64,000 nt of DNA from a virus (IMGVR_UViG_3300025674_000014), one strand, 5' to 3'; shown: positions 25,971 through 64,000, counted from the first letter of the stretch. Notes: generated by a model from the letters alone, not told the origin. Translations and numbers: made by a program.

Positions 25971-26003
25971 ATGGATATAGTTGGATATTTTTTAAATTAA
26001 TAT

Positions 26004-26987
26004 ATGGATTGTGTCGTAACTGCTCTATACGAAGTCGAACCGTATTTTTTAGACGGTGACCCGTATAGACCTACGTTATGTAGACAAATGGCATTTGATT
26101 ATTATGTAGGTGGGTTGTATAGTCTCAAGGGTCTTAATAAAGATATAATTTTATTTTGTAATGATAGACCTATAAACTTCAGAGGTAAAGATATTACACC
26201 TAAAGAAGTGATTGATCAAATAATTCCCGATAAAGATTTTACAAAACAAATAAAATTTGTACCAATAAGTTTACCTAAATTTTATACTAAATACGATAAA
26301 CATTGGGAACAGTGTACTAAAATAGCTCAAAATAATCCTGATAGGTTACTTTGTTGGAACCCACCAATGGCTTGTTGTAGGGGTGATATATTTGATTACG
26401 TTTTTAAAAATTATAATTACGATACTGCTATTTGGTTTGATGCAGCGTTATCTAATGAATCGTACGTTAGTACAAAGTATGGCGGTACGTGGCATGATTG
26501 GGAATTAAATGATTGGAAAAATTATTACCCAGATAATAAAGAAGCTATTTTTTGTCCAGATTTTTATAATAATATAGGTAAGATTGTTAAAGAGTATGGT
26601 AATATTATTTGTGGTTTGAATTGGATGAATTTAGAACCTAAAGATTTCATCAAACAACAATTAATAAAAAATAACAACCCTACATTTTACAATTTTTCAT
26701 CAACAGGAGCATTTTTAGGATTTACTAAAGATTATTTTTATAATAATTTTTATAATGATTATAATAAAGCATTAGATACGTTTATAGATAATTATGATGA
26801 TATATTTACAGAAATAGAAGTGTTTTCATATATGAATATGTTTAAAGACTTTGCTAAAGTTATGTGGACTAGTTTTCACTCTAATATATTCGATGGTAGT
26901 ATGCAAAAAGCATTTTTAGATATTGTTGATGGTAACTTTAAAGTGAGATTTAATGATAGTTTAGGCAAGGAGAATTTAAATGAATAA
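26004..26987 (+). CDS. divergent HtrL/YibB(WlaTC)-like glycosyltransferase
   Basis: VVTALYE, AIWFDAA, GAFLG and FTEIEVFS parallel the HtrL domain of the 867-aa protein. Confidence 0.45.
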   Translation: MDCVVTALYEVEPYFLDGDPYRPTLCRQMAFDYYVGGLYSLKGLNKDIILFCNDRPINFRGKDITPKEVIDQIIPDKDFTKQIKFVPISLPKFYTKYDKHWEQCTKIAQNNPDRLLCWNPPMACCRGDIFDYVFKNYNYDTAIWFDAALSNESYVSTKYGGTWHDWELNDWKNYYPDNKEAIFCPDFYNNIGKIVKEYGNIICGLNWMNLEPKDFIKQQLIKNNNPTFYNFSSTGAFLGFTKDYFYNNFYNDYNKALDTFIDNYDDIFTEIEVFSYMNMFKDFAKVMWTSFHSNIFDGSMQKAFLDIVDGNFKVRFNDSLGKENLNE

Positions 26988-27687
26988 AACAACAAAATAT
27001 GCATTAGTTATACCTACATTTGAAAATAATATAGGTTATAAATTAGCAGCTATAGACACCTACTTAAAAGAATTACCAAAAAATGTAGACATATTCTTTG
27101 TATATGGTGGTAAAGTAGATGAGGTTAATAAAGTTTTTAGGAACGGTGTAGAATTTTACGATGTTTATTGTAATACACCCGATAGAATAGAAGTGCTTCA
27201 TAAAAAACTTTTTTACTTCTTTAAAAAATTTAAAAAACAACTTTTAGAATATGATTATATTGTAAAAGTAGATGATGATGCATTTATCATGAATGTTGAT
27301 GCATTTACCACAAGTAAATTTTCAGGAGATTATATTGGTAATAAAGTAGATATAAATGATAAAAATGAAGAACAATTAAGAAGTAAATTGAATCATCTAA
27401 AAAATTATAAAGTAAGGGACAAATATACTGGTGATTTACCAAGTAACTTTTGTTCTGGAGAATTCGTTATTTTTTCCAATAAATCATTACAAGTACTTTT
27501 ATCTTATAATGGTGGGTTAAAAAGAAAAAATTATGGTTTAGAAGATATTTTTATAGGTGATATTTTAACTCAAAATGATATAAAAATTACTATAAATAAA
27601 GTTTTTAATATAGAACACCCAGTAACTGAGCCTAACTTTTACAAACTTTATACCACACATTATGAAAAAGTAGTTGAAAAGGTTTGA
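26980..27687 (+). CDS. GT31/galactosyltransferase-like glycosyltransferase
   Basis: DYIVKVDDDAF, FCSGEFVIFS and LEDIFIG. Confidence 0.7.
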   Translation: MNKTTKYALVIPTFENNIGYKLAAIDTYLKELPKNVDIFFVYGGKVDEVNKVFRNGVEFYDVYCNTPDRIEVLHKKLFYFFKKFKKQLLEYDYIVKVDDDAFIMNVDAFTTSKFSGDYIGNKVDINDKNEEQLRSKLNHLKNYKVRDKYTGDLPSNFCSGEFVIFSNKSLQVLLSYNGGLKRKNYGLEDIFIGDILTQNDIKITINKVFNIEHPVTEPNFYKLYTTHYEKVVEKV

Positions 27688-27692
27688 CTATG

Positions 27693-27710
27693 TATAAATA
27701 GATATAAATA
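27693..27710 (+). promoter_or_regulatory. two tandem TATAAATA late promoters
   Basis: Exact TATAAATA at 27693-27700 and at 27703-27710. Confidence 0.55.
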
Positions 27711-27716
27711 AATTTG

Positions 27717-27808
27717 ACCATGCAAGTTAGTTTGTGGGTTATAATGCCTGTGGTGGGGCTTATAACTAAGTAGGTGGGACTTGCATGGTTTTTTTTGTCT
27801 TTTTTTTT
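27717..27808 (+). ncRNA. candidate late small RNA / long hairpin
   Basis: 11-bp outer stem (27717-27727 with 27779-27789), inner GTTATAA/TTATAAC stem, then T-tracts. Confidence 0.35.
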
Positions 27809-27818
27809 AATTATCTAT

Positions 27819-28610
27819 ATGAAAGTTCTCGTTATTGGAGAAAAATGTATAGATAAATTTACTTACGGTAAAGCTTTTCGATTATGCCCTGATTATCCTG
27901 CACCTGTATTCACCCCCGGTAGAGAAGTTATTGATGACGGTATGGCAGGTAACGTTGTTAACAACTTAAAAAGTTTAGGTATTGAACCTGACTTTTACCA
28001 CAATAGAGAAGAATTAACTAAACAACGTTATGTGGATGAACTTACAAACCACACTTTTCTTAGAGTAGATAATACTGACAGAGTTGCAAACTTAGATGCT
28101 TCTAAATTAATGGTTGGGCGAACATTAAACGATTATGATTGTGTTGTTATATCTGATTACTGTAAGGGATTCCTTTCGGAAAATAGTATAGAATATATTT
28201 GTAGGTTACACGGTAATGTTATTATTGAAACTAAAAAGGTACTTGGAGATTATTGTAAGAAAGCAAAATTTGTAAAAATGAACGAGAAAGAATATGAGGA
28301 TATTAAACCTTATATTAATCTTGAAGAATGGAAGGATAAATTAATTGTTACTTTAGGTGATAAAGGATGTTTATATAACGGTAAAATTTACCCAGTAGAT
28401 AAAGTTGAAGTTTTTGATTTATGTGGAGCCGGAGATACTTGGTTAGCTACTTTTGTTTATGGTATGTTAAAACATAAAGATACAGAACTAGCTATACCTT
28501 TAGCTAACAAAGCAGCAACTCAAGTAGTACAAAGAAGAGGTGTCGTAGCAGTTTATAGTAGACAAAACGAAAAAGGAGAACACGAGATTGTTAAAAAATT
28601 GAAATGCTAA
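27819..28610 (+). CDS. PfkB-family sugar kinase, HldE/RfaE heptose-7-phosphate kinase domain
   Basis: IDKFTYG..RLCPDYPAP, GMAGNV, VISDYCKG, VTLGDKG and CGAGDT. Start placed at the ATG at 27819. Confidence 0.8.
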   Translation: MKVLVIGEKCIDKFTYGKAFRLCPDYPAPVFTPGREVIDDGMAGNVVNNLKSLGIEPDFYHNREELTKQRYVDELTNHTFLRVDNTDRVANLDASKLMVGRTLNDYDCVVISDYCKGFLSENSIEYICRLHGNVIIETKKVLGDYCKKAKFVKMNEKEYEDIKPYINLEEWKDKLIVTLGDKGCLYNGKIYPVDKVEVFDLCGAGDTWLATFVYGMLKHKDTELAIPLANKAATQVVQRRGVVAVYSRQNEKGEHEIVKKLKC

Positions 28611-28631
28611 GATTGTATATATAATACATTT

Positions 28632-28850
28632 ATGGCTAAAAAGTATAATCTTAAACCTTGTCCTTTTTGTAACAGTAAAAAATTGATTGAATGGCAAATG
28701 TTAGGTAGCCAGCGTTTTTGGAATATTATGTGTACAAAATGCGGTGCAATGGGACCGCAAATAGAAAATGACCACAAACCTACTGCTATCAGATGTATAA
28801 GTGAATCGTGGAATAGAAGAATAAATAGTAACGATGTTATTCAAGATTAA
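28632..28850 (+). CDS. Lar-like zinc-finger protein
   Basis: LKPCPFC...CTKCGAMGP...WNRR. Confidence 0.7.
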   Translation: MAKKYNLKPCPFCNSKKLIEWQMLGSQRFWNIMCTKCGAMGPQIENDHKPTAIRCISESWNRRINSNDVIQD

Positions 28851-29349
28851 CAGAGAAAAAGAATTTAACGACATATTTAAACTATCGTCGGATATAAAAA
28901 ATAGTGTTTGGTGTGATAAAGCACCAACTATAGTAATTTGTTCCCCTGAATTTTCTGGTATTGTAGGTCAAATTTTAATTCACGATTTAAGTTTATTAAA
29001 TGATAATAAACCTTTAAACTATTTTAGTTTAGATATGCCGTATCCAAACGGTGAAGAATTTAATTATGAACAATATAGAAATGAAATAGATAAATTAATA
29101 CCTAAATTAGATAATTTAGATAAAATAATTTTTGTCGATTCAGGTGTATTGAGAGGTTTTAATTTTTCAGTTTTAAAATTTGCAGTAGAGAAAGAAATAA
29201 ATCCAAATAAAATAAAATATGCTTGTTTATACTTGCAAGATGATTCAATTTTTGAACCAGATTATTATGTTGAAAAATTTAATTTTGAAAAACAAGGAGG
29301 CTTAACCTTCTGGTGGGAGAATGAAGATAGCCCGTATTGGGGGTGGTAA
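28834..29349 (+). CDS. phosphoribosyltransferase-fold protein with atypical PRPP loop
   Basis: IIFVDSGVLRG, EPDYY and LTFWWE. Confidence 0.55.
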   Translation: MLFKINREKEFNDIFKLSSDIKNSVWCDKAPTIVICSPEFSGIVGQILIHDLSLLNDNKPLNYFSLDMPYPNGEEFNYEQYRNEIDKLIPKLDNLDKIIFVDSGVLRGFNFSVLKFAVEKEINPNKIKYACLYLQDDSIFEPDYYVEKFNFEKQGGLTFWWENEDSPYWGW

Positions 29350-29350
29350 T

Positions 29351-29722
29351 ATGATATCTACTTTAATGACTTATTGGTATTGTCCAGATCAAAAATATGT
29401 AGTTACTTTAGAAGAAGTAAATGAATTTTTACTTCACCATAAGGTAAAAATACGTAATGTAAAACTATGGGAATTAAAAAAGTTTAGAAACTTTAATCTT
29501 GATCCCCAGCTTGTTAAGGAAGCGCGTAAAAATTTACAACCTATTTTAGTTGTAAAAGATCTGGCAGGTAACTATACTGATGTTATCATAGGAAAGCATA
29601 AATTAGAAAGTGCTTTTCAATTAGGAGAAAAGACTATTAAAGTCAAAGAGATTAGTATGAAAAAAGCTCCTAAGAATATGAGAGTTTTATTTTTACAGAA
29701 AAAGTATGAAAGAAGCAATTGA
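29351..29722 (+). CDS. ParB/Srx-N-like protein
   Basis: PILVV...IIGKHKLESA..LG.KTI resembles PI.V..DGxHR. Confidence 0.4.
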   Translation: MISTLMTYWYCPDQKYVVTLEEVNEFLLHHKVKIRNVKLWELKKFRNFNLDPQLVKEARKNLQPILVVKDLAGNYTDVIIGKHKLESAFQLGEKTIKVKEISMKKAPKNMRVLFLQKKYERSN

Positions 29723-29979: not shown

Positions 29980-30056
29980 GCCAAAGTAGCTTTAATTGGC
30001 AGAGCAGTTGATTTGTAATCATCAGGTTGTCGGTTCGAGTCCGACCTTTGGCTCCA
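29980..30056 (+). tRNA. tRNA-Thr(UGU)
   Basis: Acceptor GCCAAAG/CTTTGGC, loop TT-TGT-AA, GGTTCGAGTCC and CCA. Confidence 0.93.
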
Positions 30057-32349: not shown

Positions 32350-32424
32350 GCGCCTATAGTTAAACGGATATAACCCTAGCCTTCTAAGCTTGTATTCTTG
32401 GTTCGATTCCAAGTAGGCGTACCA
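32350..32424 (+). tRNA. tRNA-Arg(UCU)
   Basis: Acceptor GCGCCTA/TAGGCGT, loop CT-TCT-AA, GGTTCGATTCC and CCA. Confidence 0.92.
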
Positions 32425-41449: not shown

Positions 41450-42991
41450 TTAGAAGTATACAGCCTGAGAACCTGGTGTGAAGGCCTCACCAAGATTCTT
41501 AACAATGATAACGTGGTAGTACAAGTTAGCACCGAAGATGTTGTCAACAACACCGTAACGGGTTAACAAGCCAACACGTGGCGAGAAGTCGTTAGGACCA
41601 ATCGTTCTCTGAACCATAACAGGAATGTATGGACAGTAGATAATACCAGTGTCATAGAATTCAGGGCCTTTGTAACCAAGCAATGCATACTCAACGCGAG
41701 AGGTACGAGCACCGGAAGGTGTATAAGTACCTTGATCAGGCTGAGTGATATAACCTGCATTGTTTTCGTACTGAGCTTCTGTGCGGGTGTCACGGTAAAC
41801 GTTGAAACGACCGCCGAGGTTACCAACTTTGGCAACACCAACAGGCTGGGTGTTAACGTTACCCTGAACGGGTACCCACTGGAACTCAGGCAACATCTCG
41901 AGGATAGCTGCAACTCTAGGTGTACAAACGATGAAGTTAGCAGCACCACGTCTGTTACGAATAGCAATTCTATTTGCTTCAATAATGATTCTCTGGTAGA
42001 AGTCTCTGTTACGCTCAACTAACCAGCGACCGTCAGCAGACTGAGGAGCCCAGATGGAATAACCGTTTCCGGATCCATTATCAAGAGCAACCTGAACCAT
42101 ACGCATCAACATTTCACGATCTATCTCAGCCTGCAACTCGTAAGACATTGCATTGGTGAGTTCGGTATCGATGTCAATACCATTCATGTTCTTAAGGTCC
42201 TGCTCGAGCTCAACAGACCAACGAGCGGCCAAACGACGTGTACCAGCTTCAACAGCTGTCTTCTCAAAGCTAACAACGACCTGAGGAATACGTCCGGTCA
42301 ACTCAAAGTTAGCAAGAAGTTTTGCAACACCTTCGTCCTGATTGACGAATGGGAAGTCTGAACCAGCACCTAAACCAGACAATTTTTCGGAAGATGTACC
42401 AGTGAAACGTGTATCTAAGAACTGATAACCTAATTCCTTACCATCGGCATTGGATCCAGAACCGGAACCTCTACCAGAAGCAGGGTTGTTAGCAGTGTTT
42501 TCAGCAGTACCATAAGTACCCTGACCGATACCGTCAATACCATTACCAAGAGCGTCTGTCTCGTACTTATAACGCAAAGCAAATGCTAAGCCAACGGGAC
42601 CACTCATAGGCTGAACACCAACGATTTCGTTAGTAATCAACTCAGGGAAGGTACGACGAATCATAGGAATAAGAATCTTAGGCAAACGGAAGTCACCGGT
42701 TGCGTATGTGTCACCCTGACTGTAAGAGTTAGGGATCTGATTACCATACTGACCGATGTTAACACTACCATTGCTAAGAGCAGATCCTGTTCCGCCTGCA
42801 AAGTTACCATTCTCGTTTAAACACCATGCCTCTTGGTTTTCCAAGAGCATAGCCGTACTCAGACGCTGATGGTCGTCTGTGATTTCTTTGACATTATCAG
42901 ATTTGTAGTCCAATACAGGACCCCATTTTTCTAACAATGCTTTAGCCCTATTCTGATCGATATAGGCTTCTGAGGGTTTAATAGTATTCAT
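41450..42991 (-). CDS. gp23: major capsid protein
   Basis: KWGPVL, LLENQ, VGVQPMSGPVGLAFALR, ELEQDLKNMNGID and YCPYIP. Start placed at MNTIKP (42991). Confidence 0.96.
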   Translation of the reverse strand: MNTIKPSEAYIDQNRAKALLEKWGPVLDYKSDNVKEITDDHQRLSTAMLLENQEAWCLNENGNFAGGTGSALSNGSVNIGQYGNQIPNSYSQGDTYATGDFRLPKILIPMIRRTFPELITNEIVGVQPMSGPVGLAFALRYKYETDALGNGIDGIGQGTYGTAENTANNPASGRGSGSGSNADGKELGYQFLDTRFTGTSSEKLSGLGAGSDFPFVNQDEGVAKLLANFELTGRIPQVVVSFEKTAVEAGTRRLAARWSVELEQDLKNMNGIDIDTELTNAMSYELQAEIDREMLMRMVQVALDNGSGNGYSIWAPQSADGRWLVERNRDFYQRIIIEANRIAIRNRRGAANFIVCTPRVAAILEMLPEFQWVPVQGNVNTQPVGVAKVGNLGGRFNVYRDTRTEAQYENNAGYITQPDQGTYTPSGARTSRVEYALLGYKGPEFYDTGIIYCPYIPVMVQRTIGPNDFSPRVGLLTRYGVVDNIFGANLYYHVIIVKNLGEAFTPGSQAVYF

Positions 42992-43068
42992 AGTTTTATG
43001 TATACGGGTTTGTAAGCACTCTACCAAGAGCGCTGGAAATTCTTATAAAAGGGTATCTATCAATGAGA

Positions 43069-53721: not shown

Positions 53722-56325
53722 TTAGTTTTCTCTTCTATCTTCAGCTTTGTAATATTCAAACCTTTCATGATAGCAAGGAGTTGCTAATAGAATTGCAGGT
53801 TTAATATGTCCCTTAACTGTTTGCTGATAAATGTATGACATCCAAGTTTGTTCAAACGGTGCTGCCCATTTCTCTTCAAGGAACATCTTCTTATTACCTT
53901 CTTTTGAAACTAACTGAGGCCAGTTACAATAGAATACCTCTCCATCAATGTAAGGTAAACCGTCCATATTGTAAATATGATTGTATTTAACTAATGGAGC
54001 GTTAGGATCTAAACCGTTAGCCGGTAAATATTTCTTTTCTGGCCATACTTGCTCTCTCAGTTCTTGAGGTACATTATACCAAGACCATTGAGTACGATTA
54101 TCTCCAAAGAATTCAGTAAAGCAGAATTTAAGCAAATCAAATCCATGCTTTTCCATAATCTTGTGAGTCTTATCAAACAAGTTAGGTATATATCTTCTAA
54201 AACCACTTTCACAATAACCAACTTCTTTATCGTGAATATACATATCATCTTCAAGAAAGATATAATAATCACCGTCTGTCTTGTCAAAGTGTTCGGCTAC
54301 CCACTGTCTACCTCCGCAAATACCGATATTATCTCGTTTATGCTCTGTAAAATTATAAAGATCAAAAATAGCTTCATAATCAGCATCAGTAGATCTATCA
54401 GTCGAATTATTCAATACAACTTTTTCACATTTCTCAAACCATTTATCAGTAGTTGACCAATTTTCACAAAGTCTTAAGAATTGAGCAGGTGAATTATAAG
54501 TGATCACGTAAAGATATGTCTTAAGATCTTCAATAGGTCTAGTTTTTCTCGTCGTGATTAACTCAACGGTATCATTTTTTAGATGCTCAAAGAAACATTC
54601 AAACAGACCGTCATCTCTGATCATGGTTCTGTCTACTAAATCTTCATGTTTGTAAGTCAAAATAGTGAATACACTCTCTTCTGTACCCATTTGACCTTCA
54701 TCTAATGAATTTTTTAAGTAATCGTAGTAAAGACTATTAACTTTTGGTATATAATCCTTATGACCACCAAATACACCTGCTCTTGCAACGCGGGTTGTCT
54801 TATCTACATTACAATATGTGCGTAATCTTTCATGATCAAAGCCATGAATTTCATAATTTTCGTACGGAAAACATACGAATAAAAATTTCTGCAAGTAATG
54901 ATGAATTTTATTAATAACTTTATCGTGAGTAAAGTACCCTTGATGAACTGTACTAGTAATACCACCATCAACCCATAAGAAATAATCGGTATTAAATGGA
55001 TTTGAAATAGCAGCATCATTGAGTAAAAACATCTTACTCATTACCATTGGATTATACAGTTCTAACCCAGCCTGAGTACTCTCTGCGAGCCAGGATGCTT
55101 TGTTATACCAGTCTGGGTTAGAACGAATCTCTTGTACTTTGTCGTAGAATTCAAACCAAGTTTTAAACTCCTCAGCTTCTTTAATAATAACACTAGTGTT
55201 ATCCCTACTTCTACGCTCCCATACGAAATCTTCATGTGCTTTTCCGATAAAAATAATCATCGGAGCATCAGTTTTTAATAGTTCATCAAATTTATCTAGA
55301 TAATGTTGGAATGGTCTATTAAACCCTCCCTCCATTTCTCCACGTTTAAGGTCCCAAATACCAGTCACTATAGTCGTTTTAGAAGGTCCTTCGTTAGATA
55401 TTGTTCTCTTTGGTTCTTCTTTGTCTTCTACTATAGTTCCATCTTGGAAATAATCACCTTCTTCAACGTTTTCAGGTACATCTATAAAGTTACCATCGGC
55501 ATCGTTTCTAAAACCATTACCTTCAACGCAAAGGCCAAGTTTTTCAACCTCAACCCAACGTCTATTTGTCTTAAATTTCTCAATCTCACTACTATGGAAA
55601 GCCATAATATCACAACCTTCCTGATTAGTAAGAATGTAACCTGCAGCAATTAACCTATCAAATAGTTTAACTAACTTATCTTCTTCATTATTGAATAACT
55701 CAAACTTAATTACTTTAGGTAAGTATTTTTCTAAAGTAAATCCTAAAAACACTTCATAATCAAAACCTTCTGTATCAACTGTACAGAAATCAATCTTTTC
55801 AATACCGTGTTTTTCTAATAGTGAATCAGCAGTAACTACATCTACTTCAATAAGATCACCGTGTTCTTCAAGTAATGCTTTAGTTTCAGCATCTGTTTCA
55901 AAGCCATTTTTAGGTGGTATAAAAGAACCCATACCTACAATAGCTTCATGTAAACCATCTGATTCAATCTTACTCCATGGAATGTAACACATTAGCTCTT
56001 TTCGTTCAGTATCTGAAACAGCTACATTCTCCGTAATACAACCTTCTGGTAATTCAGTGGTTACATACTTTGTAAGTGCTTTAAATGCATCAGGTATTGG
56101 TTCAACGAACATACCTCTCCATTTATATGTTACCATATATGCAGAAATAGTATCATGAAAAGTACCATCACAAGAACCAATCGATAGATTGAACATAGGG
56201 TCGCCTTTTCGACCATAGTGATGCAAAATTATATCATAAATTCTCTCGACTTGCCAGGTGTTGAATTTTGTTGAAATTCTACCTTCATAGTCATCCCCTA
56301 CTATATGATTGTGAATATTACTCAT
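53722..56325 (-). CDS. fusion of FkbM methyltransferase, HtrL/WlaTC glycosyltransferase and GT-A domain
   Basis: FkbM: IGSCDG, FVEP, VDTEGFD. HtrL: TIVTGIWD, NPFNTDYFLWVDGG, GVFGG, MGTEES. GT-A: YYIFLEDD. Confidence 0.8.
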   Translation of the reverse strand: MSNIHNHIVGDDYEGRISTKFNTWQVERIYDIILHHYGRKGDPMFNLSIGSCDGTFHDTISAYMVTYKWRGMFVEPIPDAFKALTKYVTTELPEGCITENVAVSDTERKELMCYIPWSKIESDGLHEAIVGMGSFIPPKNGFETDAETKALLEEHGDLIEVDVVTADSLLEKHGIEKIDFCTVDTEGFDYEVFLGFTLEKYLPKVIKFELFNNEEDKLVKLFDRLIAAGYILTNQEGCDIMAFHSSEIEKFKTNRRWVEVEKLGLCVEGNGFRNDADGNFIDVPENVEEGDYFQDGTIVEDKEEPKRTISNEGPSKTTIVTGIWDLKRGEMEGGFNRPFQHYLDKFDELLKTDAPMIIFIGKAHEDFVWERRSRDNTSVIIKEAEEFKTWFEFYDKVQEIRSNPDWYNKASWLAESTQAGLELYNPMVMSKMFLLNDAAISNPFNTDYFLWVDGGITSTVHQGYFTHDKVINKIHHYLQKFLFVCFPYENYEIHGFDHERLRTYCNVDKTTRVARAGVFGGHKDYIPKVNSLYYDYLKNSLDEGQMGTEESVFTILTYKHEDLVDRTMIRDDGLFECFFEHLKNDTVELITTRKTRPIEDLKTYLYVITYNSPAQFLRLCENWSTTDKWFEKCEKVVLNNSTDRSTDADYEAIFDLYNFTEHKRDNIGICGGRQWVAEHFDKTDGDYYIFLEDDMYIHDKEVGYCESGFRRYIPNLFDKTHKIMEKHGFDLLKFCFTEFFGDNRTQWSWYNVPQELREQVWPEKKYLPANGLDPNAPLVKYNHIYNMDGLPYIDGEVFYCNWPQLVSKEGNKKMFLEEKWAAPFEQTWMSYIYQQTVKGHIKPAILLATPCYHERFEYYKAEDRREN

Positions 56326-57670
56326 TATAAATTCCGTTCGTTATTTCATGTTTTGAGTGAGGTAAGTGGATAGGGTGTGGACCAATTCTATCTAACCAAC
56401 CTTTGCTAGCGCTGTGAGGTAACACAGCCCATGATTTAGGTTCTTTTTCACTGCAGAACTTCAAAAAGAAACTTGCAGCATCTTTGGCACATTCTTCATC
56501 AATACGCCATCTACCTAAGTCTTCTCTAAAAATTTCTTCACCATCTGCATCATGAGCTGTACAACACCAGAAATCACAATCAGCATGATCAGGTGTTGTG
56601 ATATCTGCATTAGCTATCCAAATATCTACACACCAGTTCCTACCAAATGCATTCTCCCAATCTTCTTTAGATGCAAATATTTCTGGATTATCTTTATAAT
56701 TAGGTGTTGGTGGCTCGTTTAACTGAGGCCAAGTATACTCCATAACACCTCTTCTATCGAATTTGATACCTGTATAACATTCAAACTCTTCTAAAGTACG
56801 TTCAGTACCGAAACCATACTTACCAAAGTCAAATGTTTGTTCTGTTTCATCCATTCCAAATAAAGTTCTGTTTCTGAAATGACACGCATTATTAACAGAT
56901 GACCAACCATAACTACTACCTGAATCTACATCATGGTCATCCCAATGTTTATCTCTTCCCTCTCTAGTATATTCATGCCAAGCAATAAGCTTATGAGGGT
57001 GAAATAGATCATAACCATGGGTAAATGCTCTTGCTGCAATGCTAATCTCTTCTCCATGAAAATAATAATCAGGATCGTGAGGTATCTCAGTACAAAACTG
57101 ACCTAAGGTAAAACAAAAATGAGCAGAATAAAATCTGGATCTCATTGGTTCGGTTCTAACTCTATAATTAGGCATTGTAGCTGGTATAAAGAAAATAGCA
57201 CCTTCTGGAATAAATCTATCAAATTCCATAAACCAAGGATCGTTTTCTCTACCATCGGGGTCATTATGAGGTTTATATGAAGGTAAATATGCAGTAAGTA
57301 AAGGTTTCTTATGACCTTTCTTTTGTAATTGTTTTACCATATCAATGCACAAGGTATCCCAACCTTCTGCAAACCTGTGATGTGAATCTAGCTGAAGGGT
57401 ATATGTTTCGCCTTTATATTCATTCTGAACAATATTTCTAGCCCAACATACACCTCTGGCTTCTTTCCAATCTACATCGATAATTCTAAATCGTGGGTCG
57501 TTTTCAAACTCTGGAATTTCATCAAACGTATCACCTGGCTTAAATTGTCTACAAATACCAAATCTTAAATTCTCTGGTTTATTTGCATTATTAATACAGT
57601 CGTGTAACGTTTTAGGTAATTCTGGGTCTCTATACGAAGCAATTTGTATAAAAATAGTTTCTTCTTTCAT
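56318..57670 (-). CDS. GT60-like GlcNAc-transferase (PF11397) plus C-terminal domain
   Basis: IFIQIASYRDPE, GVCWAR, QLDSHHRF and FHGEEIS. Confidence 0.85.
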   Translation of the reverse strand: MKEETIFIQIASYRDPELPKTLHDCINNANKPENLRFGICRQFKPGDTFDEIPEFENDPRFRIIDVDWKEARGVCWARNIVQNEYKGETYTLQLDSHHRFAEGWDTLCIDMVKQLQKKGHKKPLLTAYLPSYKPHNDPDGRENDPWFMEFDRFIPEGAIFFIPATMPNYRVRTEPMRSRFYSAHFCFTLGQFCTEIPHDPDYYFHGEEISIAARAFTHGYDLFHPHKLIAWHEYTREGRDKHWDDHDVDSGSSYGWSSVNNACHFRNRTLFGMDETEQTFDFGKYGFGTERTLEEFECYTGIKFDRRGVMEYTWPQLNEPPTPNYKDNPEIFASKEDWENAFGRNWCVDIWIANADITTPDHADCDFWCCTAHDADGEEIFREDLGRWRIDEECAKDAASFFLKFCSEKEPKSWAVLPHSASKGWLDRIGPHPIHLPHSKHEITNGIYNE

Positions 57671-57688
57671 AGCATCCTGTTATTATGT

Positions 57689-59215
57689 TTACTTTGGATC
57701 AACAATATCTTTAGTAATCTTATCTAACCAACCATTATTATGGGTGTAAGGTATTACTGTATATGATGCAGGTGTTTCAGGGCATGTCAATGACATAGGA
57801 AATCTAGCTGCATATGGATCTTGTCTCTCGTCGTAAATTTCTTGAATCTTACCAATGTCGTAATCTTCTCTCTTTAGCTCCTTACCTTCTGCATCATGCA
57901 CACCTACATACCAAAACTCAGTATCTTCATAAGTCTCAGGTAACTCATCCCAAGGGACAAAGAAGTCTATACACCAGTTCTTACACCATTCTGTTTGATC
58001 ATGAGGTGTAATATTTTCATAACTAGGGTTTTTATAATCTCTACAATCAGGAGAAATAGCTCTTAGTTTAAAATTAATACCAGCGTACTCTTCATATTGT
58101 TCTACTGTTCTAACTTTACCAAACCCATATTCATCCCCGAAGTTAATTTGATTAGGATCTTCACCATCCATACCAAACAGAATACGGTTACGCTTATGAC
58201 ATTGATCATTTACTTCATACCAGTCATATTCTCTACCGCTTGATCTATTATTATCATCCCAATGGTGAGGTCTACCTTTTCTTGTATATTCATGATATGC
58301 AATAATCTTATGAGGATGGAATAAATCATACCCGTGAGTAAAAGCTCTTACAGCAATACTAATCTCTTCACCGTGGAAGTAATAATTAGGGTCGTGAGTT
58401 ACTTCTTTACACATCTTACCAGATGCAAAAGCAAAGTGAGCTGAATAAAATCTACTTGGAATAGGTTCTCTTTGTTCGTCTCTTTCCATTGACGTGGGTA
58501 AAAAGAACATTGCACCTTCTGGAATGAATCTATCGATAATCATCTTCCAAGGATCTACTTCAAAACCATTAGCAAGCGTACGTTCACCTGTACCGTCTTT
58601 AAATTCTAACCAAGGTTTATAGCTGGTTATGTAACCGGTAAATAGTGGTTTTTCGTGACCTTTATCTTGCATGTAATAATACATGCTTTTCATTTCTGAA
58701 TCCCAGTGATCTACAAATCTATGATGTGAATCAATTGCTAAAGTAAATTCATCTTCACACCATAAGTGTTGTAATGAATGTCTAGCCCAGCATGTACCGT
58801 GACCTCTTCTAGCATCTACTTTAATTACTTGAAATCTATCATCATTTTGCATGAATTCGAACATGTCCTTATCATATTCATCATCTGGGTGCCATTGCCA
58901 GCAGATACCAAATCGTAAATTTTCAGGGTTATCAGCCCTTTTAATCATATCTTTAATAGTTGGAATGAGTTCAGGGTCTCTATATGCAGCAATCTGAACA
59001 AAAATACGTTGATTACCTTTTCTATTTGGATCTACACTTTCATGGTAATATGTACCTACTTTATCCCAGGATTCATTTGTTTGTTGTTTACCTGGGGTGC
59101 TAATTTGTAATGAAGGGGTATCTTGTTGTGAATGTTGTACTTCTACAACTTTTTCACTACTAGTACTTTTTACAGACTTTAATCTATTTTTCCTAACAAT
59201 CTTAATACCTGGCAT
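57689..59215 (-). CDS. GT60-like GlcNAc-transferase (PF11397) paralog plus C-terminal domain
   Basis: IFVQIAAYRDPE, GTCWAR, AIDSHHRF and FHGEEIS. Confidence 0.85.
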   Translation of the reverse strand: MPGIKIVRKNRLKSVKSTSSEKVVEVQHSQQDTPSLQISTPGKQQTNESWDKVGTYYHESVDPNRKGNQRIFVQIAAYRDPELIPTIKDMIKRADNPENLRFGICWQWHPDDEYDKDMFEFMQNDDRFQVIKVDARRGHGTCWARHSLQHLWCEDEFTLAIDSHHRFVDHWDSEMKSMYYYMQDKGHEKPLFTGYITSYKPWLEFKDGTGERTLANGFEVDPWKMIIDRFIPEGAMFFLPTSMERDEQREPIPSRFYSAHFAFASGKMCKEVTHDPNYYFHGEEISIAVRAFTHGYDLFHPHKIIAYHEYTRKGRPHHWDDNNRSSGREYDWYEVNDQCHKRNRILFGMDGEDPNQINFGDEYGFGKVRTVEQYEEYAGINFKLRAISPDCRDYKNPSYENITPHDQTEWCKNWCIDFFVPWDELPETYEDTEFWYVGVHDAEGKELKREDYDIGKIQEIYDERQDPYAARFPMSLTCPETPASYTVIPYTHNNGWLDKITKDIVDPK

Positions 59216-59236
59216 ATTTTATTTTATGCCAGGTAT
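59205..59236 (-). promoter_or_regulatory. hairpin sequestering the GT60 start codon
   Basis: Perfect 11-bp inverted repeat ATACCTGGCAT / ATGCCAGGTAT with a 10-nt loop. Confidence 0.5.
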
Positions 59237-59249
59237 CGTTGATTTCAAC

Positions 59250-62200
59250 TTAGTTAATACATTTTACTTTATAATCAAACCATTCTTGATGTAAACGAAC
59301 ACAGTTAATGCAAGCTGAATTATGAATACAAGCAGCATTATTAACATTAAGAAATGCAATTCCTACAAATTGTCTTGTTGAACCCCATAAATTTAAACAA
59401 GAATCATTAAAATCTAGCTGTTTACAAACGGTTACTACTTGATTAGTAAAAGTATTTGGCATGTTTGCGCCTATACTACACCATATTATTCCGTTACCAA
59501 AGCTAAATAAATAACATACCGGGTAATTACTACTAGTGTTATTTCCATAAGATACATTTATTTTATAATATAAACAATCAATCATACTCATACAGTAATT
59601 AGAACTACAAACTGAACATTTTACCATACATGCCTTATTTGCCATCATAGGAATGCAATTTGTACAACACATTGTATAATAGGCATACCACCCACCATCA
59701 CTTCCCGGAAGACAAATATTATGTACATATTGACCTCCGCATGTAAAACCACATGTGGTGTTTCTACAACAATAAGCTAATGAATAATTTTCACACCCTA
59801 CATTTGCCAATATGTATTTACAACCGCAACCCCAACATAAACTAGTTGAATCATAACCGGCACAAAGATATTTGTCACACATATTATCTATATGATAATT
59901 ACTCCACCAATTAGATTGCCATGCATAAATACATCTACCTGAATATCCGCAATCATAAAGATTAGCTAATGCACATAAATTACATGTACTACAAGCGGTA
60001 TAAATAGCAGGCATCCAAGAATCATGTTGAGTATACCCAGACGGTTTTGGAGCACACCAACACCAATATAGAGGTGTACCTGAAGCTCGACAATTGTTTA
60101 CGTAATAACTATAAGTAAAACAATTACTACTATCTGCCAACATATTTGTAGTTGCAAATGTCATAGCAGGGTTATATACTTCACAAGAATAACAAAATTT
60201 TATACATTGACCGGTAGTTAAAGTAGAATAATCTACAGAACATGTTATAGTGCTATATGAAGATACGTTAGAGTTAATAGTAGGGTAGTTATATGTAGCT
60301 TTAAATGTACCAGCGCTACAAAAATAAGGGTCACACCCATATGTAATAAACCCGCCAAATGGAAAACATATTTTCCATGTCCATCCAAAAACACAAGAAG
60401 TGCTTATACATCTAACTTTATACCCGTAACCACTGGTTGGTGTACCCCAGGGTAATATATAGGTGTTAGAAGTATTACCATAATTGTCTGTTCTACTTGT
60501 CCACCAAGGGTGCGCTTTTGCTTGATTAAAGCATCTAAATCCTTGCGTACCTGTACATTTTGTTTCGGGCATTAAATTAGTACAAGCATAACTACCGCTG
60601 GTATAATTAGCACAGGTATAGCTAGTTATTGTTGGACAAGTCGCGCCTGAACATATTAAATCAGTTACACTTGAACATTCATTAGGCACGGGAGGTGTGC
60701 TCGTAACTGTGGGTGTTCTTGTCTGTGTAGGTGTATGTGTACTTGTTCTGGTCGGCGTTCTCGTCTTGGATTCTGTAATAGACTTCGTTCTGGTTGGTGT
60801 TCTTGTCTTCGTTCTAGTACGTGTAGGTGTATAGGTTGGTGTTCTTGTACGCGTAGGTGTTCTTGTTCTCGTGTTAGTAGGCGTTTGTGTACGCGTACGT
60901 GTGTAGGTTGGTGTTCTTGTACGTGTACGTGTACGTGTTTGGGTTGGTGTTCTCGTACGTGTACGTGAATGTGTAATAGATTTCGTTCTGGTTGGTGTTT
61001 GTGTACGTGTAGGTGTACATGTTCTCGTGCGTGTATAGGTTGGTGTTCTCGTACGTGTACGTGATTGTGTAATCGACTTCGTTCTGGTTGGTGTTCTCGT
61101 ACGTGTAGGTGTTTGTGTACGTGTACGTGTTTGGGTTGGTGTTCTCGTACGTGTACGTGATTGTGTAATCGACTTCGTTCTGGTTGGTGTTCTCGTACGT
61201 GTAGGCGTACATGTACGTGTTCTTGTTCTCGTACGTGTAGGCGACTGGGTTGGTGTTCTTGTACGTGTAGGTGTTTGTGTACGTGATCTTGTACGTGTAC
61301 GTGTACGTGTAGCTGATTGAGTTGGTGTTCTTGTACGTGTAGGTGTTTGTGTACGTGTTTGGGTTGGTGTGCGCGTTCTAGTAGGTGTTTGTGTACGTGT
61401 CTTAGTTCTTGTTTGCGTTCTCGTACGTGTATAGGTTGGTGTTCTTGTTCTCGTACGTGTATATGTAGGAGTTTGTGTACGTGTATTTGTTGGTGTACGC
61501 GTACGTGATGCTGTACGTGTCGGTGTTTGTGAACGAGTAGGTGTTTGTGTACGTGTACGTGTTGCTGATCTGGTCGGTGTGCGTGTACGTGTACGTGTCT
61601 GTGTAGGTGTTTGTGTACGTGTTTGTGTTCTCGTTCTACTTGGTGTAGGTGTTTGTGTTATTGATTTAGTACGTGTAACGGTTGGTGTTCTTGTACGTGT
61701 TACAGCTGGTGTTGCTGTTCTGGTAGGTGTTCTTGTACGCGTAGCTGTCTGAGATTTTGTTCTCGTTTGCGTAGCTGTACGTGTATTTGTTGGTGTTTGC
61801 GTACGTGTCGGTGTTTGTGTACGTGTCTTAGTTCTTGTTCTCGTACTCGTAGCTGTTCTCGTATTAGTAGCTGTCTGCGTATTAGATTTTGTTCTAGTAG
61901 CTGTTGGCGTTTGTGTACGTGTCTTAGTAGCTGTTCTAGACTTAGTACGTGTTGGTGTTTGCGATCTCGTACGTGTATTGGTTGGTGTTTGCGTACGTGT
62001 AGCTGTTTGAGTGTTAGATTTCGTTCTCGTCTGGGTTGGTGTTCTTGTACGCGTACGTGTAGATGTTTGTGTTGCTGTACGTGTTGATGTTGGTGTTTGT
62101 GTTCTGGATCTTGTACGTGTACGTGTCGGTGTATTTGATCTCGTACGCGTACGTGTAGCAGATTGTGTAGGTGTTTGTGTACGTGTCTTAGTTGACGTAT

Positions 62201-64000
62201 TAGTAGCTGTCTGCGTTGCTGTCTTAGTGTTTGTTGGTGTTGGTGTTTCAGTACGTGTTCTAGTACGTGTTCTTGTGGGAGATTGTGTTCTCGTTGGCGA
62301 TTGTGAACGTGTTCTTGTAGGTGTCTGTGTTCTTGTTCTTGTAGACGTTCTTGACTGTGTAGACGTTTTCGTCTTTGTAACTGTATTAGTACGTGTGTTT
62401 GTAGGAGTTTGTGTTCTTGTCTGCGTTGCTGTCTGCGTTGCTGTCTTAGTGTTTGTAGGTGTTTGTGAACGCGTACGTGTTACCGTTTCTGTTGCTGTTC
62501 TGGTAGACGTTCTTGTTTGTGTGGCTGTTCTTGTTCTCGTTGGCGTTTCTGTGCGTGTACGAGTTGGTGTACTACTACGTGTTTTAGTATTTGTAGCGGT
62601 TTGTGTGGTTGTTCTAGTGCTTGTCTTAGTAGGTGTATGTGTTCTAGTAGGTGTTTGTGTACGTGTTCTTGTATTAGTTTCGGTTCTTGTCTGCGTATTT
62701 GTTCTTGTAGATGTAGGTGTTTGTGTATATGTAGGTGTTGATGTTCTTGTATTTGTAGCGGTCTGCGTGTAAGTTGATGTAGATGTTCTTGTGTTAGTAG
62801 CAGTTTGGGTATTTGTTTTTGTTTGTGTTGGTGTTCTCGTTGATGTTTGAGTTGATGTTTTAGTAGATGTTCTTGTTTGTGTGGCTGTACGTGTGTTAGA
62901 TTTCGTTCTCGTTTGTGTGCGTGAACGTGTTTGCGTAGCAGTTTGTGTTGCCGTACTTGTAGGTGTTTGTGTTCTTGTACGTGTACTAGTAGCGGTATTT
63001 GTAGGGGTTTGTGTTCTTGTACTTGTACTGGTTTTGGTATTTGTTGGTGTTTGTGTTCGCGTACGTGTATTTGTTGGCGTTTGTGTACGTGTTTCAGTTG
63101 GTGTTTGTGTACGCGTACGTGTATTTGTTGCTGTTTGAGTAGGGGTTTGTGTTCTTGTTTGCGTTGGTGTCGGATAACGTGAAACAGTTGCAGTAGATGT
63201 TTGTGTGTTCGTTCTCGTCTGTGTAGATGTTCTCGTCTGCGTAGACGTTCTTGTCTGCGTAGATGTTCTTGTATTGGTTGGTGTTCTTGTACGTGTACGA
63301 GTGTTAGTTGCTGTTGGCGTTTGTGTACGTGTACGTGTTTGTGTATTTGTACGTGTATTTGTCGGTGTTTGTGTTCGTGTACGTGTACTAGTATTTGTAG
63401 GTGTTTGTGTGCGTGTACGTGTTTCTGTTGGTGTAGGCGTTTGTGTTCTCGTTCTTGTCTGAGTAGCAGTTCTTGTCTGTGTTGATGTACGTGTGTTAGT
63501 AGCGGTTTGCGTAGACGTTTGCGTAACCGTTCTCGTATTAGTAGCTGTTTGAGTAGCTGTTTGTGATGACGTTCTTGTTTGTGTTGGTGTACTTGTAGCT
63601 GTTCTAGAAGCTGTCTGGGTAGGTGTTCTAGTACGTGTAGCTGTCTGGGTTGGTGTTCTAGTTTGGGTTGGTGTGCGTGTACGTGTTACGTCAGGTGTAT
63701 CTGTTTGACTTGGTGTTCTCGTAAACGTAGGTGTTCTTGTTTGTGTTCCGGTCTGCGTTGATGTTGGTGTTTGTGTACGTGTACGTGTTTGTGTATTTGT
63801 TGGTGTTTGGGTGCGTGTACGGGTTTGTGTACGTGTACGTGTATGTGTTGGTGTTTGCGTTCTTGTCTGCGTCGGTGTTTGTGTACGTGTACGTGTGTTA
63901 GTAGATGTTTGTGTATTTGTTTTTGTTCTTGTTTGAGTAGCTGTTCTTGTCTGCGTAGATGTTCTCGTCTGTGTTGGTGTTTGTGTTCTCGTCTGAGTCG
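59250..64000 (-). CDS. giant mucin-like (Thr-X)n protein with Cys-rich C-terminal domain, 5'-truncated
   Basis: Read triplet by triplet, the frame has no stop from 64000 to 59250. The track start at 60689 is only the first in-frame GTG. At least 1,583 codons. Confidence 0.85.
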   Translation of the reverse strand, partial: TQTRTQTPTQTRTSTQTRTATQTRTKTNTQTSTNTRTRTQTPTQTRTQTPTHTRTRTQTRTRTQTPTNTQTRTRTQTPTSTQTGTQTRTPTFTRTPSQTDTPDVTRTRTPTQTRTPTQTATRTRTPTQTASRTATSTPTQTRTSSQTATQTATNTRTVTQTSTQTATNTRTSTQTRTATQTRTRTQTPTPTETRTRTQTPTNTSTRTRTQTPTNTRTNTQTRTRTQTPTATNTRTRTRTPTNTRTSTQTRTSTQTRTSTQTRTNTQTSTATVSRYPTPTQTRTQTPTQTATNTRTRTQTPTETRTQTPTNTRTRTQTPTNTKTSTSTRTQTPTNTATSTRTRTQTPTSTATQTATQTRSRTQTRTKSNTRTATQTRTSTKTSTQTSTRTPTQTKTNTQTATNTRTSTSTYTQTATNTRTSTPTYTQTPTSTRTNTQTRTETNTRTRTQTPTRTHTPTKTSTRTTTQTATNTKTRSSTPTRTRTETPTRTRTATQTRTSTRTATETVTRTRSQTPTNTKTATQTATQTRTQTPTNTRTNTVTKTKTSTQSRTSTRTRTQTPTRTRSQSPTRTQSPTRTRTRTRTETPTPTNTKTATQTATNTSTKTRTQTPTQSATRTRTRSNTPTRTRTRSRTQTPTSTRTATQTSTRTRTRTPTQTRTKSNTQTATRTQTPTNTRTRSQTPTRTKSRTATKTRTQTPTATRTKSNTQTATNTRTATSTRTRTKTRTQTPTRTQTPTNTRTATQTRTKSQTATRTRTPTRTATPAVTRTRTPTVTRTKSITQTPTPSRTRTQTRTQTPTQTRTRTRTPTRSATRTRTQTPTRSQTPTRTASRTRTPTNTRTQTPTYTRTRTRTPTYTRTRTQTRTKTRTQTPTRTRTPTQTRTQTPTRTRTPTQSATRTRTRTRSRTQTPTRTRTPTQSPTRTRTRTRTCTPTRTRTPTRTKSITQSRTRTRTPTQTRTRTQTPTRTRTPTRTKSITQSRTRTRTPTYTRTRTCTPTRTQTPTRTKSITHSRTRTRTPTQTRTRTRTRTPTYTRTRTQTPTNTRTRTPTRTRTPTYTPTRTRTKTRTPTRTKSITESKTRTPTRTSTHTPTQTRTPTVTSTPPVPNECSSVTDLICSGATCPTITSYTCANYTSGSYACTNLMPETKCTGTQGFRCFNQAKAHPWWTSRTDNYGNTSNTYILPWGTPTSGYGYKVRCISTSCVFGWTWKICFPFGGFITYGCDPYFCSAGTFKATYNYPTINSNVSSYSTITCSVDYSTLTTGQCIKFCYSCEVYNPAMTFATTNMLADSSNCFTYSYYVNNCRASGTPLYWCWCAPKPSGYTQHDSWMPAIYTACSTCNLCALANLYDCGYSGRCIYAWQSNWWSNYHIDNMCDKYLCAGYDSTSLCWGCGCKYILANVGCENYSLAYCCRNTTCGFTCGGQYVHNICLPGSDGGWYAYYTMCCTNCIPMMANKACMVKCSVCSSNYCMSMIDCLYYKINVSYGNNTSSNYPVCYLFSFGNGIIWCSIGANMPNTFTNQVVTVCKQLDFNDSCLNLWGSTRQFVGIAFLNVNNAACIHNSACINCVRLHQEWFDYKVKCIN
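60690..64000 (-). repeat. degenerate 6-bp-period coding repeat (Thr-X)n
   Basis: Plus strand shows recurring GTACGT, GTTCTT, GTTGGT and GTTTGT units. Protein reads TPTRTRTQT-like. Confidence 0.95.
61038..61205. repeat. perfect 72-bp direct repeat inside the Thr-X array
   Basis: 61038-61109 is identical to 61134-61205. Confidence 0.9.

What the first reader, a model, noticed from the sequence alone, without database searches (positions are those of the whole stretch)
60690..64000. Hidden ORF of about 1,100 residues with near-strict Thr-X alternation
Seen: the minus frame contiguous with the Cys-rich ORF has no stop across 3.3 kb and no in-frame start, so the track missed it. Thr (occasionally Ser) occupies nearly every second position, X is mostly R, Q, P, A, N, S or K, and the register is kept almost throughout. 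The Val-rich, Cys-rich and YTY ORFs in the track are shadows of this frame. Inferred: selection for period 2 puts all Thr on one face, as in an extended glyco-stalk or a beta-solenoid. TxT ladders also characterise ice-binding proteins, which is an alternative role. The many Arg residues make the chain strongly cationic unless it is shielded.
Basis: partly seen in the sequence, partly recalled or inferred. Interest (0 to 1): 0.72.

Follow-up and report, generated by a model that had tools for sequence, protein, structure and literature searches.

The report
Giant phage fibre with threonine-alternating stalk
An uncultured aquatic T4-like phage encodes a huge virion protein whose last 1,400 residues before a cysteine-rich tip have threonine at every second position, followed directly by two genes for enzymes that in protists start mucin-type sugar coats, so the stretch is most likely a long sugar-coated spacer rather than an ice-binding fold.

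Summary
The minus frame 59250-63998 has no stop. Residues 1-1101 carry Thr or Ser at 548 of 551 odd positions, with no register shift. The window edge truncates the array. In a near-identical contig it is 1,410 residues. It is preceded by Laminin_G_3 domains and a 214-residue Thr-X linker, and a sister contig's gene call is 10,042 residues. Codon statistics show selection for a hydroxyl residue. The array has 2% hydrophobic residues, one Gly and no coil-length periodicity, so a beta-solenoid or ice-binding fold is not supported. Two tandem GT60 (PF11397) transferases and an FkbM-HtrL fusion follow on the same strand. In 15 of 40 viral loci with a GT60 homologue, Thr-X proteins lie within 10 kb, often directly upstream. 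None was found in 32 control loci. The best reading is an extended, cationic, probably O-glycosylated spacer of a giant lectin-domain virion fibre. Glycosylation is inferred, not shown. The 481-residue Cys-rich tip is an orphan. The scan had already flagged GT60 next to Thr/Pro stalks, in this genome and in other phage genomes.

The parts
60696..63998 (-). C-terminal 1,101 residues of a (Thr/Ser)-X period-2 array. The array is 1,410 residues in the near-identical contig L003. It runs off the window edge.
59250..60695 (-). 481-residue Cys-rich (52 Cys) C-terminal domain of the same ORF, plus the stop codon. It is an orphan and the likely distal tip.
   Evidence: No relatives were found. It is 100% identical in five other contigs.
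60918..61227 (-). 96-nt (32-residue) higher-order repeat inside the array. It is the only site of length difference between contigs (deletions of 32 and 78 residues).
59204..59237 (-). 13-bp hairpin between the stop of the Thr-X gene and GT60a. Its 3' arm contains the GT60a AUG.
57689..59215 (-). GT60a, PF11397 GlcNAc-transferase family, 508 residues
56318..57670 (-). GT60b, PF11397 paralogue, 450 residues
53722..56325 (-). FkbM methyltransferase fused to an HtrL/YibB-like domain (and a weak glucosyltransferase-like region), 867 residues. Its HtrL-like part travels with GT60 in 30 of the 40 GT60 loci and in phage XacN1.

Best explanation
The stretch is the distal part of one very large late structural protein of an uncultured aquatic T4-like myophage. 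The protein is a string of Laminin_G_3 (lectin-fold) domains separated by Thr-X linkers. It ends in a 1,332-1,410-residue Thr-X array and a 481-residue Cys-rich tip. The array has almost no hydrophobic residues, so it cannot fold. It behaves as an extended, strongly cationic chain. I infer that during late infection the two GT60 enzymes encoded directly downstream use a host UDP-HexNAc (probably UDP-GlcNAc) in the cytoplasm to put a sugar on the Thr hydroxyls, and that the FkbM-HtrL fusion extends or methyl-caps it. The result would be a stiff, protease-resistant, mucin-like bottle-brush a few hundred nanometres long (0.25-0.34 nm per residue). It would hold the lectin domains and the swappable tip far from the particle, for host capture or adhesion to polysaccharide. 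Shown: the sequence pattern, selection on the hydroxyl residue, the domain context, the gene linkage and its recurrence. Inferred: that sugars are attached, which sugar, the physical length and the adhesive role.
For: The phage identity rests on a Gp23 capsid protein, a T4-type terminase, a tail sheath and a baseplate protein. The array is strict and under selection. Upstream lie Laminin_G_3 domains (five or six matched stretches) and a second 214-residue Thr-X linker. The LamG part matches PHROG families named virion structural protein and baseplate wedge subunit. A sister contig's gene call is 10,042 residues. GT60a, GT60b and the FkbM-HtrL fusion follow on the same strand, 35 nt downstream. 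Both GT60 paralogues keep 94 columns that are invariant in eight sequences, including D-S-H. 15 of 40 viral loci with a GT60 homologue carry Thr-X tracts of 23 residues or more within 10 kb. Nearly all are on the GT60 strand, and in at least nine loci in the gene immediately upstream. None was found in 32 control loci totalling 318 kb. Of 120 Thr-X loci found by pattern alone, four hold a GT60 gene with strong matches (E <= 1e-96) in their short flanks. The closest relatives (GT60 77-78% identical) keep the synteny and arrays of 1,997 and 2,061 residues but have a different C-terminal domain. Between these two relatives 36 of 42 gaps have even length. GT60 enzymes of T. cruzi add alpha-GlcNAc to Thr of mucins that are about 50% Thr and 1% Ser (PMC3769586); the array is 47% Thr and 6% Ser. 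Staphylococcal Ser-Asp dipeptide stalks are GlcNAc-modified by two glycosyltransferases, SdgA and SdgB, and this protects them from proteolysis (PMC3794999). The array sequence recurs without indels in independent DNA runs. Identical pieces occur in two metatranscriptome libraries, which is a weak hint only.
Against: No sugar has been observed; the linkage is purely genomic. 25 of 40 GT60 loci have no Thr-X tract within 10 kb. One close relative (L016) keeps both GT60 genes but has a fibre-like protein without Thr-X at that position. Most Thr-X loci found by pattern show no GT60 in their short flanks, so the arrays do not need GT60 nearby. Known GT60 acceptors are not Arg-rich. The N-terminal part of the protein could not be read, so attachment to the virion is not shown. 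One JGI gene call splits the gene at 3,435 residues. The loci compared are related to each other, so the counts are not independent events.
Confidence: 0.5

Rival explanations
1. The array is a real, translated, extended cationic spacer but carries no sugar. It works as a bare polyelectrolyte tether that sticks to anionic cell surfaces or exopolymers. The GT60 enzymes act on something else, such as other Pro-rich Thr-X proteins, host envelope or DNA.
For: The net charge of +211 with Arg from two codon families suggests that the charge itself is selected. Thr-X arrays are widespread in viral contigs, mostly without a GT60 gene in view. Part of the FkbM-HtrL fusion weakly resembles a DNA glucosyltransferase PHROG (E 3e-5). 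L016 keeps the GT60 pair without a Thr-X gene nearby.
Against: This does not explain why a hydroxyl residue is kept at 99.5% of alternate positions. It also does not explain why the gene directly upstream of GT60 carries Thr-X tracts in many divergent loci.
Confidence: 0.3
2. The array is a protamine-like internal protein segment that condenses or accompanies DNA inside the capsid.
For: It is extremely Arg-rich and polycationic. T4-like phages package internal proteins (general knowledge).
Against: The array is fused to lectin-fold LamG domains and a Cys-rich terminal domain. The LamG part matches PHROG families named virion structural, baseplate wedge and tail fibre protein. The C-terminal domain is swapped between relatives, as receptor-binding tips are. 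The N-terminus is unavailable, so a capsid-targeting leader cannot be checked.
Confidence: 0.05
3. The array folds into a beta-solenoid or other Thr-ladder structure and binds ice.
For: Only the local TxT pattern. AlphaFold2 drew long strands, but at low confidence.
Against: Beyond period 2 there is no repeat. Identity between X positions stays near the 0.20 chance level at all lags from 3 to 40. There are 22 hydrophobic residues, 1 Gly and 2 Cys in 1,101, so no core and no turns. Pro falls every 3-6 dipeptides. No Pfam antifreeze family matches. pLDDT is 43 and pTM 0.25.
Confidence: 0.02
4. The stretch is a non-coding hexanucleotide satellite or an assembly artefact, and the open frame is an accident.
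For: The DNA is repetitive (50 TRF rows). Contigs differ in length at one site. Logan contigs break inside the array.
Against: There are no stops in 1,101 codons (4,230 nt of array in L003), against 4 to 114 in the other frames. The frame is contiguous with folded domains on both sides. The sequence is identical in six contigs from different samples, apart from one in-frame indel site. The third-codon-position pattern is that of a coding sequence. Relatives keep 2,000-residue arrays in frame.
Confidence: 0.02

Closest known systems
Staphylococcal Ser-Asp repeat (SDR) adhesins (ClfA, SdrC/D/E) with the glycosyltransferases SdgA and SdgB (PMC3794999)
   Same: Both have a strict period-2 stalk of a hydroxyl residue alternating with X, placed between the anchoring part and the binding domain. 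In both cases two glycosyltransferases are involved: there SdgB adds GlcNAc first and SdgA adds more, here two GT60 paralogues are encoded in tandem directly downstream. In the SDR proteins the sugar protects the stalk from proteases.
   Different: The SDR stalks use Ser-Asp (anionic), not Thr-Arg/Gln/Pro (cationic). They are far shorter than the 1,410 residues here (general knowledge, not checked). The enzymes here belong to GT60 (PF11397); SdgA and SdgB were not compared with them. The SDR proteins are bacterial cell-wall proteins, not phage proteins.
Mucins of Trypanosoma cruzi and Dictyostelium, started by GT60 polypeptide alpha-GlcNAc-transferases (PMC3769586)
   Same: The enzyme family is the same (PF11397, 221-235 bits). 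The acceptors are about 50% Thr with little Ser.
   Different: The protist enzymes are Golgi membrane proteins that act on secreted proteins with Thr runs (T8). Here the enzymes would have to act in the bacterial cytoplasm, because that is where phage proteins are made (inference; signal peptides were not checked). The acceptor here is strictly alternating and Arg-rich. Activity has not been shown.
Serine-rich repeat glycoproteins of Gram-positive bacteria (Fap1, GspB; PMC7948813, and reference 9 of PMC5063993)
   Same: They have very long Ser-rich repeat regions (dipeptide repeats in Fap1), are glycosylated inside the cell and project an adhesive domain.
   Different: They use Ser, not Thr. 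Their glycosyltransferases are of another kind and they are exported by the accessory Sec system (not compared here). They are cellular fimbriae, not virion proteins.
Mycobacteriophage virion glycosylation (Freeman et al. 2023, as cited in PMC12619734)
   Same: Phage-encoded glycosyltransferases modify the phage's own structural proteins.
   Different: There, short C-terminal sites on the capsid and tail tube subunits are modified. There is no kilo-residue repeat stalk, no GT60 enzyme was reported in the text I read, and the host group differs.
Giant LamG-rich virion structural proteins of T4-like cyanophages and relatives (PHROG 701, 8510, 18802, 13163)
   Same: The Laminin_G_3 beads and the great length are shared.
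   Different: Of 120 multi-LamG relatives fetched, only one has a Thr-X run of 40 residues or more (65 residues). The kilo-residue array and the Cys-rich tip are specific to this clade.

Membership tests
Substrate of GT60-initiated mucin-type O-glycosylation | Thr-rich low-complexity acceptor region with Thr far more frequent than Ser | tested here: met
   513 Thr and 70 Ser in 1,101 residues. T. cruzi mucins have about 50% Thr and about 1% Ser.
Substrate of GT60-initiated mucin-type O-glycosylation | A GT60 (PF11397) enzyme encoded in the same genome, with its conserved motifs | tested here: met
   Two paralogues score 221 and 235 bits against a cut-off of 21. The D-S-H motif and 91 other columns are invariant in 8 sequences. 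No solved structure matched by sequence, so the role of these motifs could not be checked.
Substrate of GT60-initiated mucin-type O-glycosylation | Sugar covalently attached to Thr | not testable with these tools
   This needs mass spectrometry or an enzyme assay.
Substrate of GT60-initiated mucin-type O-glycosylation | Enzyme and acceptor genes linked across lineages | tested here: met
   15 of 40 GT60 loci against 0 of 32 control loci; often the gene directly upstream on the same strand. The loci are not independent, and 25 of 40 lack a tract.
Ice-binding beta-solenoid with TxT ladder (insect antifreeze type) | Regular coil repeat of constant length that stacks the TxT motifs | tested here: not met
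   The autocorrelation of X stays at the chance level (0.18-0.26 against 0.20) at lags 3-40.
Ice-binding beta-solenoid with TxT ladder (insect antifreeze type) | A core of disulfides or hydrophobic residues, and turn residues | tested here: not met
   2 Cys, 22 hydrophobic residues and 1 Gly in 1,101 residues.
Ice-binding beta-solenoid with TxT ladder (insect antifreeze type) | A match to a known antifreeze family, or a confident folded model | tested here: not met
   No Pfam family at E <= 0.1. AlphaFold2 gave pLDDT 43 and pTM 0.25 from a single sequence, which is weak evidence.
Fish antifreeze glycoprotein (Ala-Ala-Thr)n | Period-3 repeat with Ala at both X positions | tested here: not met
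   The period is 2, and X is mostly R, Q or P.
Giant LamG-bead virion structural protein of T4-like phages | Several Laminin_G_3 domains in one very long late protein | tested here: met
   PF13385 matches in 5-6 stretches, E 1e-79. PHROG families named virion structural protein and baseplate wedge subunit match.
Phage tail fibre or receptor-binding protein | N-terminal domain that attaches to the virion | not testable with these tools
   The N-terminal roughly 6,700 residues lie outside all DNA that could be fetched.
Phage tail fibre or receptor-binding protein | C-terminal tip exchanged between close relatives while the shaft and synteny are kept | tested here: met
   L015 and L017 keep the array and the downstream genes but end in an unrelated Cys-poor domain of about 220 residues.

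The most novel reading that the evidence does not exclude
A bacteriophage makes its own mucin. This would be a virion fibre several hundred nanometres long whose stalk of more than 1,300 residues carries a sugar on every second residue. The sugar would be added in the bacterial cytoplasm by two eukaryote-type GT60 initiating enzymes and then capped by a methyltransferase-glycosyltransferase fusion. The same enzyme-stalk module would be shared by many uncultured aquatic phages.
Probability: 0.42. Interest if true: 0.8.

Novelty: new variant of a known kind. Interest (0 to 1): 0.62.

Why it matters
If the stalk is glycosylated, this would be the first mucin-type glycoprotein of a bacteriophage and would show a GT60 enzyme working in a bacterial cytoplasm. 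It would also explain a sequence type (period-2 Thr arrays) that at least 120 viral contigs carry and that gene callers and domain libraries miss. Such long, sugar-coated, lectin-tipped tethers could change how aquatic phages find hosts or stick to particles and mucus. Even without sugar, a strictly alternating, Arg-rich, unfolded chain of 1,400 residues in a protein of perhaps 10,000 residues is an unusual piece of virion architecture. It is easy to test by co-expression and mass spectrometry.

Tried and rejected
Extending the gene to its start failed. No whole genome is held for the window. The ENA and JGI records behind L001 and L003 are not held. A metagenome-contig scan with the upstream LamG part found no relative. 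An exact cluster look-up of the 2,341-residue partial product found nothing. A length-shifted protein search for the 10,042-residue product found nothing. The exact look-up of the 479-residue GTG-start ORF failed, probably because the start codon is read as V rather than M.

The Cys-rich domain gave nothing anywhere: no Pfam, PHROG, phage-record, IMG/VR, Atlas or 1.84-billion-protein relative other than a fragment of itself, and no internal repeat or weak relative among all fetched loci. AlphaFold2 from single sequences was uninformative for the tip (pLDDT 34.8) and for a 240-residue array segment (pLDDT 43), so no fold search was run. GT60b has no sequence match in the PDB.

Megablast of 56000-60700 against cultured phages found nothing. 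Literature searches for phage Thr-rich O-glycosylation or GT60 in phages found no prior description.

The read laying used Logan contigs only. Parts of the array without RNA contigs, and the many 'joints' between array positions, are repeat cross-matches and prove nothing. No complex prediction was run, because enzyme-substrate pairs are poor candidates for that test.

Full report
**What the window is.** The window belongs to a distant T4-like myophage. It encodes a Gp23-type major capsid protein (41450-43027, minus strand), a T4-type large terminase, a tail sheath, a T4 baseplate protein, ribonucleotide reductase and a head-tail adaptor. The capsid protein is at most about 34% identical to that of any cultured phage; the best matches are cyanophages. 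G+C is about 30-35%, but 43% over the finding, because of ACN and CGN codons. Sequencing runs that hold the stretch are labelled aquatic, freshwater, lagoon and marsh metagenomes.

**The observation.**
- The minus frame 59250-63998 is open to the window edge.
- Its first 1,101 residues have Thr (512) or Ser (36) at 548 of 551 odd positions, and the register never shifts.
- The even positions are R 194, Q 101, P 86, A 37, N 35, S 34, K 26 and a few others. The net charge is +211.
- The array has no in-frame ATG, GTG or TTG, which explains why a gene caller began at the GTG at 60689.

**It is a coding sequence under selection.**
- All four Thr codons are used (ACA 335, ACG 89, ACT 52, ACC 36).
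- At the Thr sites the minor-base fraction is 6.5% at codon position 1 (almost all A to T, giving Ser), 0.9% at position 2 and 36% at position 3.
- Arg is encoded equally by AGA (92) and CGT (92), two codon families that are several mutations apart. The positive charge is therefore also selected at the protein level.

**The full gene.**
- An exact look-up of the downstream GT60 protein returned six contigs from ENA and JGI metagenomes.
- L003 differs from the window at 2 of 4,785 overlapping bases.
- In L003 the final array is 1,410 residues. It is preceded by Laminin_G_3 domains (five matched stretches in the 1,440 residues read, E 1e-79), short Thr-X spacers and a second Thr-X linker of 214 residues.
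- The frame continues upstream inside another LamG-like domain.
- The gene call on contig L001 is 10,042 residues and lies inside its contig. On L002 it is 8,533 residues and runs to the contig end. The JGI call on L003 is 3,435 residues and would start inside a domain.
- I could not fetch the upstream 20 kb. About 3,400 residues have therefore been seen; the figure of about 10,000 rests on a gene-call table.
- The LamG part matches PHROG families named virion structural protein, baseplate wedge subunit and tail fibre protein.
- Of 120 multi-LamG giant relatives from metagenomes, only one has a Thr-X run of 40 residues or more, and it is 65 residues long.

**Stability of the array.**
- Across L001-L004 the array differs by 1-2 residues and by one indel site. 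There is a 32-residue deletion in L001 and L004 and a 78-residue deletion in L002. Both lie at the 96-nt higher-order repeat, window 60918-61227.
- The Cys-rich domain, both GT60 proteins and the next three proteins are 100% identical in these contigs.
- A DNA run covers all 30 bins with no insertion or deletion. A run from another year carries identical array pieces.
- Two metatranscriptome libraries contain contigs identical to array pieces. DNA carry-over cannot be excluded, so this is only a weak hint of transcription.

**Fold.**
- The array has 22 hydrophobic residues, one Gly and two Cys in 1,101 residues.
- Identity between X positions sits at the chance level (0.20) at all lags from 3 to 40. 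It is below chance at lags 1-2.
- The commonest motif is TRTQTP. Pro recurs every 3-6 dipeptides.
- No Pfam family matches. AlphaFold2 gives pLDDT 43.
- A beta-solenoid or TxT ice-binding ladder needs a constant coil length, turns and a core, and none is present. The chain should be unfolded and extended. At 0.25-0.34 nm per residue, 1,410 residues would span roughly 350-480 nm (inference).

**Context.**
- The stop codon is followed after 35 nt by GT60a (57689-59215), then GT60b (56318-57670). Both are PF11397, at 221 and 235 bits against a cut-off of 21, and both match phrog_24687.
- Next comes an 867-residue FkbM methyltransferase fused to an HtrL/YibB-like domain (53722-56325).
- Then come proteins of 1,110, 712, 322 and 301 residues with no family match, the head-tail adaptor and, further on, the capsid gene.
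- The two GT60 paralogues and six homologues share 94 invariant columns, including D-S-H.

**Is the link with GT60 more than one locus?**
- A scan of IMG/VR with GT60b gave 40 loci. Fifteen carry Thr-X tracts of 23 residues or more within 10 kb. All but one are on the GT60 strand.
- In L019, L020, L023, L029, L034, L035, L036, L038 and L048 the tract-bearing protein is the gene immediately upstream of GT60. In L015 and L017 it lies upstream of the GT60 pair.
- In several loci a second Thr-X protein follows the HtrL-like gene.
- Thirty-two control loci (terminase and LamG neighbourhoods, 318 kb) have none.
- The HtrL-like domain accompanies GT60 in 30 of the 40 loci and in the cultured Xanthomonas jumbo phage XacN1. 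XacN1 ORF350 has Thr-X tracts, the longest 99 residues, 13 kb from its GT60.
Most are Pro-rich Thr-X arrays of up to 875 residues. Four of the 120 short loci contain a GT60 gene with strong matches (E <= 1e-96).
- The loci are related to one another, so these counts overstate independence. In addition, 25 of the 40 GT60 loci show no tract within 10 kb.

**Closest relatives.**
- L015 and L017 (GT60b 77-78% identical) keep the gene order and have R/Q/P/K arrays of at least 1,997 and 2,061 residues. They end in a different, Cys-poor domain of about 220 residues.
- When these two arrays are aligned, 36 of 42 gaps have even length. X positions are 56% identical, while the Thr positions are kept (alignment of such sequence is approximate).
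- L016 (76% identical) keeps both GT60 genes but has a 1,680-residue fibre-like protein without Thr-X at that place.
- An exchangeable tip on a conserved shaft is what receptor-binding fibres show.

**Interpretation.**
- I read the stretch as the distal spacer of a giant lectin-bead virion fibre, probably O-glycosylated on its Thr residues by the adjacent GT60 pair.
- GT60 enzymes of T. cruzi add alpha-GlcNAc to Thr of mucins that are about 50% Thr and 1% Ser (PMC3769586).
- The best mechanistic analogue is bacterial. Staphylococcal Ser-Asp dipeptide stalks are modified stepwise with GlcNAc by two glycosyltransferases, SdgB and SdgA, and this protects them from proteolysis (PMC3794999).
- Serine-rich repeat adhesins are likewise glycosylated inside the cell (PMC7948813).
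- Phage-encoded glycosylation of virion proteins is known for mycobacteriophages (Freeman et al. 2023, as cited in PMC12619734).
- I found no paper describing Thr-X arrays or GT60 in phages.
- Glycosylation remains an inference. I give it about even odds. I give about 0.3 to a bare cationic tether.

**Earlier notes of this scan.** Other readers and follow-up agents had already proposed a phage O-glycosylation system for this genome, and had noted GT60 beside Thr/Pro stalks in other phage genomes. I used these notes as leads only. The GT60/Thr-X co-occurrence was tested independently here.

Noticed in passing
window 29980-30056 (+) and 32350-32424 (+): The phage encodes tRNA-Thr(UGU) and tRNA-Arg(UCU). 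They read ACA (335 of 512 Thr codons in the array) and AGA (92 of 194 Arg codons). tRNA-Leu(UAA) and tRNA-Met lie nearby. They may serve the huge demand of the Thr-X genes, but such tRNAs are common in AT-rich phages.
   Followed up: partly
window 59204-59237 (-): A 13-bp hairpin (-22.2 kcal/mol, z -7.2) lies between the Thr-X gene stop and GT60a. Its 3' arm contains the GT60a AUG and the next codons. A similar hairpin with changed bases exists in L016 (-26.2) but not in L015 or L017. It could be a terminator or a control of GT60a translation.
   Followed up: partly
window 697-3801 (+): Three short-chain dehydrogenase-type sugar-nucleotide enzymes lie here. They include a dTDP-glucose 4,6-dehydratase-like protein and an RmlD-like protein, both below the equivalog cut-offs. 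They could supply a deoxy-sugar for glycans.
   Followed up: partly
L012 (Xanthomonas phage XacN1, AP018399.1) 5929-7893 and 19992-29650: This cultured jumbo phage has the same GT60 + HtrL-like pair, plus a carbamoyltransferase and a GT9. Its 654-residue ORF350, with Thr-X (P/V/A) tracts of up to 99 residues, lies beside a 'structural protein' and a 'head completion protein'. It is a culturable system in which to test the idea.
   Followed up: partly
L025, L026, L027 (IMG/VR), upstream of GT60: Collagen-like (Gly-Thr-Ser)n proteins, not Thr-X arrays, lie upstream of GT60 homologues.
   Followed up: no
L016 7564-8403 (+): At the position of the Thr-X gene this close relative has a 1,680-residue Cys-rich fibre-like protein. 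It also has four small genes; one carries a motif (PRSGSTLL) that I recall as sulfotransferase-like.
   Followed up: no
L023, L035, L048 (IMG/VR): The Thr-X proteins directly upstream of GT60 are also very Cys-rich (90, 86 and 52 Cys), but they are not detectably homologous to the window's Cys-rich tip.
   Followed up: partly
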